DNA of 26,751 nt from a virus. Taxonomy: Duplodnaviria > Heunggongvirae > Uroviricota > Caudoviricetes. Location of the stretch: IMG/VR virus record IMGVR_UViG_2534681936_000019. One strand, 5' to 3'. The notes beneath the pieces were generated by a model. It was not told where the DNA came from and did no database searches. It saw only the letters and a list, made by a program, of their open reading frames with translations. Shown piece by piece: positions 9,178-10,167 of the stretch (position 1 is the first letter of the stretch; every line of letters begins with the position of its first letter). The translations under genes and the position numbers were made by a program.

Positions 9178-10167
9178 TTATATACGTCCTTTAAGATAAG
9201 TCAGTCCTGGATGAAACCAGTAAGCCGGCACTTTTTTAAAGGGCGGATTATCAAAATCACGAAGAAGAGCCTCCCGCACAACTGCATCCTTGTCCGCACC
9301 ACTGGCCAGCGCTTCAATCTCAGCAGCTATCTGCAGATATCCCATGCAACGACCAATGCACTTCATCAGCCCCTGCTTTTTATTGTTCTTCAGGTAATCA
9401 ATGGCAAATTCAATGAGCTCCTCACTATGCTGGTGCGATGGCGGTGTTACTTTTCCATTTTCTGAGATGGTTATTTTCCCAGCATCACCGGATACAACAA
9501 AGGATGGCCGGTTACACTCCCATTCCAGGTCACTGAAATTATCATTATGAATACTGAAACACTCTGCGAGATTTCTGCTCATCACTTTCCGGCAATAATC
9601 GTAAAACGCAGCAAACTGCTCATCGCGGCGTTTTTTTTCAGGCTGCTGAAGATGCTCTTTCAACCATGAAGCGCAGCTTAGATTCGCCGCGCGATCAGGA
9701 ATAGCTTCTTTCATTTCGTCTGCTGCAAGCACCTCATTTTTTGTTGGGGTGCTTTTTTTCAATTCAGCGATATAGCACTCCAGTTTTTCAATACGCGATT
9801 CAACATCATCTTTTTCTGACCGCAGTGTTGACGGCGGCATCTTCAGAGAACAAGTAATTCTTCCCGGTAGCTTTCCTTTGTAGGTTATCAATACATCCTG
9901 CGCATCTAAAATTACGGGGCGCTTTTCCGGTGACGGTTCATCCCCTTCGCATAACCCGGCAACAATATCCATGAAAAACTGCTTCGCCTGTTTTTTCGCC
10001 TCAGCTTCGTAGAACTCCAGCGTGGCACCTTCAGTACGGTCAAGACTAATCGCCACATGTGGCAACAACAACGACGGATGCCCGCCAATTTCAAGTGCCA
10101 CAGTAACAGCAATCTTATCCGGGTAATTATTTATCTCTTTAACAACCAGTTCGTATTTTTTCTTCAT
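9178..10167 (-). CDS. Uncharacterised 329-aa soluble protein inserted between pinholin and endolysin
   Basis: Long clean ORF (MKKKYELVVKEINNYPDKIAVTVALEIGGHPSLLLPHVAISLDRTEG...) starting 5 nt after the holin stop and ending 42 nt before the lysozyme start; no TM segment, no motif I recognise. Confidence 0.6.
   Translation of the reverse strand: MKKKYELVVKEINNYPDKIAVTVALEIGGHPSLLLPHVAISLDRTEGATLEFYEAEAKKQAKQFFMDIVAGLCEGDEPSPEKRPVILDAQDVLITYKGKLPGRITCSLKMPPSTLRSEKDDVESRIEKLECYIAELKKSTPTKNEVLAADEMKEAIPDRAANLSCASWLKEHLQQPEKKRRDEQFAAFYDYCRKVMSRNLAECFSIHNDNFSDLEWECNRPSFVVSGDAGKITISENGKVTPPSHQHSEELIEFAIDYLKNNKKQGLMKCIGRCMGYLQIAAEIEALASGADKDAVVREALLRDFDNPPFKKVPAYWFHPGLTYLKGRI

What the first reader, a model, noticed from the sequence alone, without database searches (positions are those of the whole stretch)
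9178..10167. 329-aa gene of unknown function wedged between the pinholin and the SAR endolysin
Lysis cassettes of the phage-21 type are normally S21-R21-Rz/Rz1 with nothing between holin and endolysin (Qin carries only the ~100-aa ydfR there). Here a 329-aa soluble protein is tightly coupled to both neighbours (5 nt after the holin stop, 42 nt before the lysozyme start), so it would be co-expressed with lysis genes at late times. It has no TM segment and no motif I recognise. A late-expressed moron in this slot could be a lysis regulator, a superinfection or defence factor, or a host-interaction protein.
Basis: partly seen in the sequence, partly recalled or inferred. Interest (0 to 1): 0.6.

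Follow-up and report, generated by a model that had tools for sequence, protein, structure and literature searches.

The report
Long-form YdfR gene in lysis cassette
The 329-codon gene between the phage holin and endolysin is real, but it is a common, already catalogued long version of the E. coli prophage gene ydfR; its role is untested, and the best lead is binding to the host RNA-cutting enzyme RNase E.

Summary
The ORF (9178-10167, minus strand, 329 aa) lies 4 nt after the S21-type pinholin stop and 42 nt before the SAR-endolysin start. It is not an orphan. Residues 1-100 match DUF1327/PF07041, the family of Qin's YdfR, and the whole protein matches PHROG 1085. The exact sequence is deposited on at least 999 contigs as "YdfR family protein". 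Some family member occurs in 2389 of 5426 complete E. coli genomes, and near-full-length forms in 491.

The protein has three modules: A (DUF1327), B (helical, indel-rich) and C (aa ~215-329, no Pfam model, no fold relative found). Salmonella prophages carry the same A-B-C layout next to a different holin type. The ~100-aa YdfR proteins therefore look like truncations. dN/dS of 0.14-0.40 on module C shows selected coding sequence, yet PGAP labels long forms as incomplete pseudogenes.

Function is unproven. The best lead is published work showing that K-12 YdfR residues 1-72 (41% identical here) bind the RNase E catalytic domain and co-purify RNA. A lysis-timing role is weakened by three facts: the gene pairs with different holin families, many phages with this holin type show no match to it, and broken copies are frequent. 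Verdict: ordinary member of a known uncharacterised family; modest interest.

The parts
9178..10167 (-). 329-aa long-form YdfR-family gene (the finding)
   Evidence: ORF. PHROG 1085 match over aa 1-329 to profile 1-296/296, E 2.5e-180. Exact protein deposited on at least 999 contigs as 'YdfR family protein'.
9832..10167 (-). Module A (aa 1-112): DUF1327/YdfR domain, beta-beta-beta-alpha core (aa 1-73) plus linker
   Evidence: PF07041 E 8.5e-39. AlphaFold2 pLDDT 70-89 for aa 1-70. 41% identity to K-12 YdfR aa 1-74. 88% identity to the YYZ-2008 114-aa YdfR. hhalign to the Salmonella N-domains: probability 89.5%, E 2e-6.
9526..9831 (-). Module B (aa 113-214): predicted long helices, indel-rich and recombining middle segment
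   Evidence: Helices 113-138, 143-174 and 181-205 at low confidence. Many insertion/deletion variants in the alignments. dN/dS mostly 0.3-0.6, up to 0.9-1.2 where poorly alignable.
9178..9525 (-). Module C (aa 215-329 plus stop): conserved C-terminal domain with no Pfam model; motifs H247, GRCMGYLQIAAEIE (272-285), DFDNPPFK (304-311), W317, PG (320-321), YLKGRI
10177..10180 (-). Shine-Dalgarno GGAG for the ORF, inside the last codons of the holin gene
   Evidence: Read directly from the sequence...GGGGAGAC TAA AGCG ATG.
10172..10387 (-). S21-type class II holin (pinholin), 71 aa, immediately upstream
   Evidence: PF04971 E 1.7e-32. PHROG 9876/20 'holin'.
8602..9135 (-). Lysozyme-family endolysin with hydrophobic N-terminus (SAR type), immediately downstream
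   Evidence: PF00959 E 1.4e-24. PHROG 7 'endolysin'. The SAR assignment rests on the sequence MNTKIKYGLSAAVLALIAAGA... and on established knowledge of R21.
7465..7959 (-). Rz i-spanin, with embedded Rz1 ORF at 7554-7739
   Evidence: PF03245 E 7.4e-51. PHROG 13. Rz1-like lipoprotein ORF listed.
10433..10459 (-). Terminator-like hairpin followed by a T-run just upstream of the holin ATG
   Evidence: Consensus scan only. It would be consistent with expression of S-ydfR-R-Rz depending on Q antitermination.

Best explanation
Shown: this is an intact, selected, cytoplasmic three-module protein of the YdfR family. It is translated from the late (Q-dependent) transcript together with the lysis genes of a lambdoid, stx-less prophage. 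It is an accessory gene rather than a core lysis component. Inferred: module A (the DUF1327 fold) docks onto the catalytic N-terminal half of host RNase E, more weakly onto RNase G, and possibly onto RNA, as reported for K-12 YdfR residues 1-72. The helical module B provides self-association or spacing. The conserved module C supplies a second, still unknown binding surface. The long form would then act as a bipartite adaptor that alters RNase E/G-dependent RNA decay in the last phase of the lytic cycle. The ~100-aa YdfR proteins (K-12 Qin, H-19B, YYZ-2008) would be truncated derivatives that keep only the RNase E-binding module.
For: Family identity: PF07041 at 132 bits and PHROG 1085 full length. 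Homology of aa 1-74 to K-12 YdfR: 41% identity, no gaps. K-12-type N-domains also occur fused to modules B and C: P0025 (296 aa) is 81% identical to K-12 YdfR over aa 1-74, and the similarity ends there. Published experiments: YdfR 1-72 interacts with RNase E 1-597 and with RNase G in two-hybrid assays. Strep-YdfR co-purifies RNase E 1-598 and DNase-resistant nucleic acid (PMC13232886). RNase E plus RNase G depletion delays lysis and lowers stx2-phage yield (PMC8443680). The A-B-C layout recurs in Salmonella prophages beside an unrelated holin family (PF16080) and downstream of Q (N-domain hhalign probability 89.5%). That fits a conserved host target better than a specific holin partner. Purifying selection acts on modules A and C. 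There is no TM segment. Late-only expression is suggested by the 4-nt coupling to the holin and by a terminator-like hairpin upstream of S.
Against: RNase E binding was shown only for the 103-aa K-12 protein, which is 41% identical. It rests on two-hybrid and co-purification assays, and direct binding was not demonstrated. Overexpressing K-12 ydfR changed few transcripts and did not affect growth. Nothing links modules B or C to RNA metabolism. Module C has no recognisable fold or motif. dsRBD-like Foldseek matches to the N-domain are not significant (E 0.5-0.7). Frequent truncated, frameshifted or IS-interrupted copies show the gene is dispensable (about 15 of 80 surveyed loci; IS1203 insertion).
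Confidence: 0.3

Rival explanations
1. Lysis-timing regulator: a cytoplasmic factor that modulates the pinholin or the SAR endolysin, working like T4 RIII or P1 LydB (my recollection of those systems) and so tuning the lysis clock.
For: In all 80 surveyed E. coli loci the gene starts 4-5 nt after the holin stop and ends 37-43 nt before the lysozyme start. Translational coupling to the holin is likely. The Salmonella homologues also sit within about 1 kb of the lysis genes. A K-12 ydfR mutant was reported in an envelope-integrity screen (cited), which could equally be a polar effect on rrrQ.
Against: The same protein architecture is paired with two unrelated holin families. In Salmonella it lies upstream of the holin and is separated from it by an opposite-strand gene. 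Only 89 of the 344 deposited phage records carrying this holin type match the gene at megablast sensitivity, so it appears not to be needed for lysis. Broken copies are common. There is no TM segment and no similarity to any PHROG in the 'lysis' category. K-12 ydfR overexpression gave no growth or lysis phenotype.
Confidence: 0.2
2. Moron with a lysogen or competition function: superinfection exclusion, anti-defence or defence, acquired horizontally into a recombination hot spot.
For: Base composition differs clearly from the neighbours (GC 45% and GC3 44%, against 53-55% and 57-65%). Module shuffling and indels are extreme. The taxonomic range is narrow: Escherichia/Shigella and Salmonella only. 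In some prophages the gene travels with a convergent 104-aa partner conserved between E. coli and Salmonella.
Against: No PADLOC hit. The gene has no evident promoter of its own and lies directly behind a holin gene that cannot be expressed in a lysogen. Late expression is atypical for anti-defence genes, which usually act early.
Confidence: 0.12
3. Non-functional remnant or fusion artefact: two short ORFs joined by error, or a decaying pseudogene as the PGAP annotation implies.
For: PGAP annotates only the first 336 nt, as 'YdfR family, incomplete, missing C-terminus', in two genomes.
Against: The frame is open for 329 codons in independent assemblies. dN/dS is 0.14-0.40 for the unannotated C-terminal module. 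The same A-B-C architecture occurs in Salmonella at 26-29% identity over at least 94% of the length.
Confidence: 0.03

Closest known systems
YdfR of the E. coli K-12 cryptic prophage Qin (b1555, 103 aa, DUF1327)
   Same: Same slot, essQ holin - ydfR - rrrQ lysozyme. Homologous N-domain: 41% identity over aa 1-74. Both match PF07041.
   Different: The K-12 protein stops being similar at aa 74 and has an unrelated 29-aa tail. It lacks modules B and C. It is the only family member with experimental data (RNase E/G binding and RNA co-purification).
Short YdfR of Stx phages (YYZ-2008 gp44, 114 aa; unannotated ORF in H-19B; BP-4795)
   Same: 88% identical to aa 1-112, with identical placement between S and R.
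   Different: Ends right after module A. DNA similarity stops at nt 328.
Stx2-converting phage 86 gp05 (268 aa) and Stx2_95 BCI50300 (329 aa)
   Same: Same A-B-C family in the same slot. Stx2_95 is 96% identical at the DNA level and of equal length.
   Different: Phage 86 has a different, shorter module B and a convergent 104-aa gene (PHROG 1853) before the endolysin, which is absent here.
Unannotated Salmonella enterica prophage proteins (189-329 aa, e.g. P0129, P0130, P0158)
   Same: Same three-part layout: a DUF1327-like N-domain (hhalign probability 89.5%), a short LEKRL-type helical segment, and a C-domain sharing the GRCMGxLQVAAEIE, DFDNPPFK and PGxxYLKxRI motifs.
   Different: 35-47% identity in module C, and no Pfam hit above threshold. 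Located after Q and a HicAB pair, and before an HP1-type holin (PF16080), rather than between holin and lysozyme.
Phage-encoded RNase E modulators (T7 gp0.7 kinase, phiKZ Dip, T4 Srd); named from my own knowledge, not tested here
   Same: Would share the concept of a phage protein that acts on the host RNA degradosome.
   Different: No sequence or fold similarity was found to anything in the PDB. Those proteins act early or on other parts of RNase E. This gene is late and lambdoid.

Membership tests
YdfR family / DUF1327 (Pfam PF07041) | Sequence match to the family profile above the curated gathering score | tested here: met
   132.1 bits against a 25-bit cut-off, aa 1-100 to profile 1-88/93.
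YdfR family / DUF1327 (Pfam PF07041) | Gene located between a class II holin and a lysozyme of a lambdoid prophage | tested here: met
   Same order in K-12 Qin, YYZ-2008 and 80 IMG/VR loci.
YdfR family / DUF1327 (Pfam PF07041) | Single-domain protein of about 100-115 aa | tested here: not met
   329 aa. Modules B and C (aa 113-329) lie outside the Pfam model. This makes it a long-form member, not a typical one.
PHROG 1085 (phage protein family, unknown function) | Full-length profile match | tested here: met
   E 2.5e-180, aa 1-329 to profile 1-296/296.
RNase E N-terminal-domain interactors (as shown for K-12 YdfR) | Conservation of the interacting segment (YdfR aa 1-72) | tested here: met
   41% identity and 64% positives over aa 1-74 without gaps. 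The same fold elements are predicted with pLDDT 70-89.
RNase E N-terminal-domain interactors (as shown for K-12 YdfR) | Physical binding to RNase E 1-597 or to RNase G | not testable with these tools
   Needs two-hybrid, pull-down or a complex prediction.
Holin/antiholin and lysis regulators | Transmembrane segment, or homology to a family in the lysis category | tested here: not met
   Maximum KD19 1.09. All eight PHROG hits are 'unknown function'.
Known anti-phage defence proteins (PADLOC-DB) | Profile match to a defence-system component | tested here: not met
   0 families at E up to 1.
Double-stranded RNA-binding domain (dsRBD) | Significant structural match of the N-domain | tested here: inconclusive
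   Foldseek matches to ADAR1 dsRBD3 and RNase III dsRBD cover only 38-66 columns at E 0.5-0.7. The query was the low-confidence full-length model.

The most novel reading that the evidence does not exclude
The long YdfR form is the ancestral, complete protein. It would be a lambdoid-phage adaptor that uses its DUF1327 domain to grip RNase E/G and its undescribed C-terminal domain (no fold relative found, restricted to Escherichia/Shigella and Salmonella prophages) to bring in a second partner or RNA. This would reprogram RNA decay at the end of the lytic cycle. The E. coli K-12 'YdfR' studied so far would be only its truncated stump.
Probability: 0.15. Interest if true: 0.6.

Novelty: new member of a known kind. 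Interest (0 to 1): 0.3.

Why it matters
This is a very common gene of E. coli and Shiga-toxin prophages. It is co-transcribed with the lysis genes that also release toxin, yet nobody knows what it does. Three outcomes are practical. (1) The unknown ORF can be filed under a known family, which removes it from the list of true orphans. (2) NCBI's PGAP pipeline labels intact long forms as truncated pseudogenes in the two genomes examined, leaving about 650 nt of selected coding sequence unannotated. (3) The only experimental data for the family come from a truncated K-12 copy, so tests of the RNase E link should be repeated with a full-length A-B-C protein. If the RNase E/G link holds, it would add a post-transcriptional layer to late gene expression of Stx-type phages.

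Tried and rejected
- NCBIfam and PADLOC scans gave nothing for the ORF.
- A PDB sequence-profile search found nothing below E 0.2.
- Foldseek of the full-length model against the PDB gave best E 0.12. The model itself is poor (mean pLDDT 50), so only the N-domain was informative.
- Internal duplication (N-domain related to C-domain, both beta-beta-beta-alpha) is rejected: hhalign probability 0.5%.
- I considered the resemblance of DFDNPPFK to the SSB C-terminal tip (DFDDDIPF, from memory). I set it aside because the motif here is internal and cannot present a free C-terminal Phe. It was not tested.
- I looked for catalytic signatures. Only H247 is invariant among possible metal ligands, and the Cys of GRCMG is replaced by Ser or Ala in some homologues, so no enzyme motif is supported.
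- Literature searches for ydfR, b1555, DUF1327 and for ORFs between S and R in Stx phages found no functional study other than PMC13232886.
- The species-level genome scan found only three loci, so it added little beyond showing a narrow range.

Full report
**Observation**

The window holds a 329-codon ATG-to-stop ORF at 9178-10167 on the minus strand. The gene upstream on that strand is a 71-aa S21-type class II holin (10172-10387; PF04971, E 1.7e-32). The gene downstream is a 177-aa lysozyme with a hydrophobic N-terminus (8602-9135; PF00959), followed by Rz/Rz1 (7465-7959 and 7554-7739; PF03245). A NanS-p-like esterase (10826-12676) and three tRNA genes lie further upstream.

A GGAG sits inside the last holin codons. 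The ORF ends 42 nt before the lysozyme ATG. It has no hydrophobic segment.

**Is it a real gene?**

Yes.
- The DNA is 100% identical in the complete genome of E. coli 2014C-3061.
- The exact protein is on at least 999 contigs, named 'YdfR family protein', 'Phage protein' or G2583_2458 of O55:H7 CB9615.
- Pairwise Nei-Gojobori dN/dS against four homologues is 0.14-0.40 for the C-terminal module in all ten pairs and 0.20-0.68 for the N-terminal module.
- The middle module gives mostly 0.3-0.6, rising to 0.9-1.2 where it aligns poorly with Stx2 phage 86.

The fusion-artefact and pseudogene alternatives are therefore rejected. PGAP nevertheless annotates only the first 336 nt, as an 'incomplete' YdfR pseudogene, both in 2014C-3061 and in strain DP051, which has an intact 296-codon version.

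**What it is**

Residues 1-100 match DUF1327/PF07041 at 132 bits against a 25-bit cut-off. K-12 YdfR aligns to aa 1-74 at 41% identity without gaps. The 114-aa YdfR of Stx phage YYZ-2008 is 88% identical to aa 1-112. The whole protein matches PHROG 1085 end to end (E 2.5e-180).

Comparison with 120 homologues shows three modules.
- **Module A** (aa 1-112) is the DUF1327 domain.
- **Module B** (about 113-214) is predicted helical and full of indels.
- **Module C** (about 215-329) is a conserved domain.

Natural variants include:
- A alone (103-114 aa)
- A+B (183-211 aa)
- A+B with a different C-terminus (305 aa)
- a short alternative N-terminus joined to B'+C (185-213 aa, no DUF1327)
- a tandem A+A form

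**How common it is**

At megablast sensitivity, some part of the gene is present in 2389 of 5426 complete E. coli genomes (5520 places), and at least 80% of it in 491 genomes. The accompanying holin type is found at 8857 places in 2419 genomes. Among deposited phages, 344 records carry the holin type, 89 carry ydfR-type DNA and only 5 carry module C. The S-R slot is thus often occupied and often empty; 'normally nothing there' is not correct. These counts do not test adjacency directly.

I also surveyed the 80 best IMG/VR loci carrying module C (all at least 92% identical, so a biased sample). Wherever the flanks were present, the gene started 4-5 nt after the holin stop and ended 37-43 nt before the lysozyme start. 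Thirty-eight were intact A+B+C forms (296 or 329 aa) and 25 were the 185-aa form. About 15 were shortened or broken. One O111:H8 copy is split by IS1203.

**The long form looks ancestral**

A phmmer search with aa 105-329 against 1.84 billion representatives found only 30 clusters. The distant ones (35-47% identity in module C) are Salmonella enterica proteins of 189-329 aa with no Pfam hit above threshold. A profile search recovered many more. They share three features:
- a beta-rich N-domain ending in a C-G/E-G-E motif
- a short 'LEKRL' helical segment
- a C-domain with invariant H247, G272, R273, L278, Q279, A281, P309, K311, W317, P320 and Y324

Profile-profile comparison supports homology of their N-domains with DUF1327 (probability 89.5%, E 2e-6, 66 columns).

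K-12 YdfR is 81% identical to aa 1-74 of a 296-aa long form (P0025), and the similarity stops there. The simplest reading is that A-B-C is the complete architecture and the ~100-aa YdfRs are truncations.

In Salmonella the gene lies after the Q antiterminator and a HicAB pair, and before an HP1-type holin (PF16080), lysozyme and Rz. The family therefore belongs to the promoter-proximal late region in general, not to one holin type. The species-representative genome scan found module C only in Escherichia and Shigella, so the range is narrow.

**Structure**

The full-length AlphaFold2 model is poor (mean pLDDT 50). It does give a confident beta-beta-beta-alpha N-domain (aa 1-70, pLDDT 70-89) and long low-confidence helices in module B. 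Module C, modelled with a 49-sequence alignment, reaches pLDDT 74.8 and pTM 0.69: three strands followed by helices.

No search found a relative:
- PDB sequence profile, best E 0.22
- Foldseek against the PDB, best E 0.12
- BFVD, best E 0.47
- AFDB50, not available

The N- and C-domains are unrelated to each other. Sub-threshold dsRBD-like matches to the N-domain (E 0.5-0.7) are a lead only.

**Mechanism**

The only experimental data come from Göpel et al. 2026 (PMC13232886).
- A fragment of K-12 YdfR (aa 1-72) was recovered with RNase G as two-hybrid bait.
- It interacts more strongly with RNase E 1-597.
- Strep-YdfR co-purifies RNase E 1-598 and DNase-resistant nucleic acid.
- Overexpression changed few transcripts and did not affect growth.

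Lodato 2021 (PMC8443680) showed that joint RNase E and RNase G deficiency delays lysis and lowers stx2-phage yield.

Combining this with the conservation of aa 1-74 and with late, holin-coupled expression, I consider the following most likely, at about 0.3. The protein is a late accessory factor whose module A docks on RNase E/G, while modules B and C add oligomerisation and a second binding function. The binding of this particular protein, and any effect on RNA decay, are inferred and not shown.

**Rivals**

A lysis-timing regulator (about 0.2) fits the stereotyped placement. Several facts weaken it:
- the pairing with two unrelated holin families
- only 89 of 344 phage records with this holin type match the gene
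- frequent broken copies
- the absence of a TM segment or any lysis-family similarity
- the lack of a phenotype on overexpression in K-12

A lysogen-benefit or defence moron (about 0.12) fits the AT-rich composition (GC3 44% against 57-65%) and the mosaicism. Against it, there is no own promoter and no PADLOC hit. A non-functional remnant is excluded by selection and conservation.

**Novelty and score**

The gene is a long-form member of a known but uncharacterised family, and it is already present in public databases. It is not a new kind of element. Three points go beyond the annotation:
- the three-module architecture, and its likely ancestral status
- an undescribed, narrowly distributed C-terminal domain under purifying selection
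- the mislabelling by PGAP in the two genomes examined

Interest is modest (0.3).

**Caveats**

- Counts rest on megablast sensitivity.
- The 80-locus survey is biased towards close relatives.
- dN/dS values for the closest pairs rest on few substitutions.
- The fold searches could not include AFDB.

Noticed in passing
L001:9001-9336 (= window 9832-10167) and L011:2501-2836: PGAP annotates intact 329- and 296-codon long forms as 'YdfR family protein, incomplete, missing C-terminus' pseudogenes. About 650 nt of selected coding sequence is left unannotated.
   Followed up: yes
window ~7976-8365: An extra ~390-nt segment lies between the endolysin and Rz relative to phage Stx2_95. It carries small minus-strand ORFs: 8312-8524 (70 aa, PHROG 6632), 8178-8309 (43 aa, TM-like, PHROG 4906) and 8059-8331 (90 aa, PHROG 3246). 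PGAP calls a 'frameshifted lysis protein' at window 7837-8303, although the Rz ORF 7465-7959 is a complete PF03245 match.
   Followed up: partly
L012:3317-3631 (-), L002:3366-3680 (-), L008:4807-5124 (-): A convergent ~104-aa gene (PHROG 1853, no Pfam hit) follows the YdfR-family gene in Stx2 phage 86 and in a Salmonella prophage (46% identity, E 2e-34). An ORF of the same size and position in Stx2_12E129 was not compared. This may be a two-gene cassette. The partner is absent from this window.
   Followed up: partly
window 12677-13415: tRNA-Met/Arg/Arg genes (13166-13415, minus strand) are followed directly by the NanS-p-like esterase, with no stx genes between them. This is an stx-less lambdoid prophage with the late-region backbone of Stx phages.
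   Followed up: no
L004:1518-3347: In E. coli O111:H8 strain 1056-1 the gene in the S-R slot is interrupted by an IS1203 element. The 3' remnant is 98.8% identical to nt 644-990 of the ORF.
   Followed up: no
proteins P0049 (207 aa) and P0040-P0045 (305 aa): Two further family variants: a tandem duplication of the DUF1327 module (A+A), and a form in which module C is replaced by an unrelated C-terminus. The second (P0042) is seen on 275 contigs.
   Followed up: no
window 10433-10459 (-): A terminator-like hairpin with a T-run lies just upstream of the holin ATG and inside the longer GTG-start reading frame (10172-10447). It may make S-ydfR-R-Rz expression depend on Q antitermination.
   Followed up: no
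L006:2458-3112 and L008:3127-3781: In the Salmonella prophages a HicA/HicB toxin-antitoxin pair on the opposite strand sits between the Q antiterminator gene and the YdfR-long homologue.
   Followed up: no
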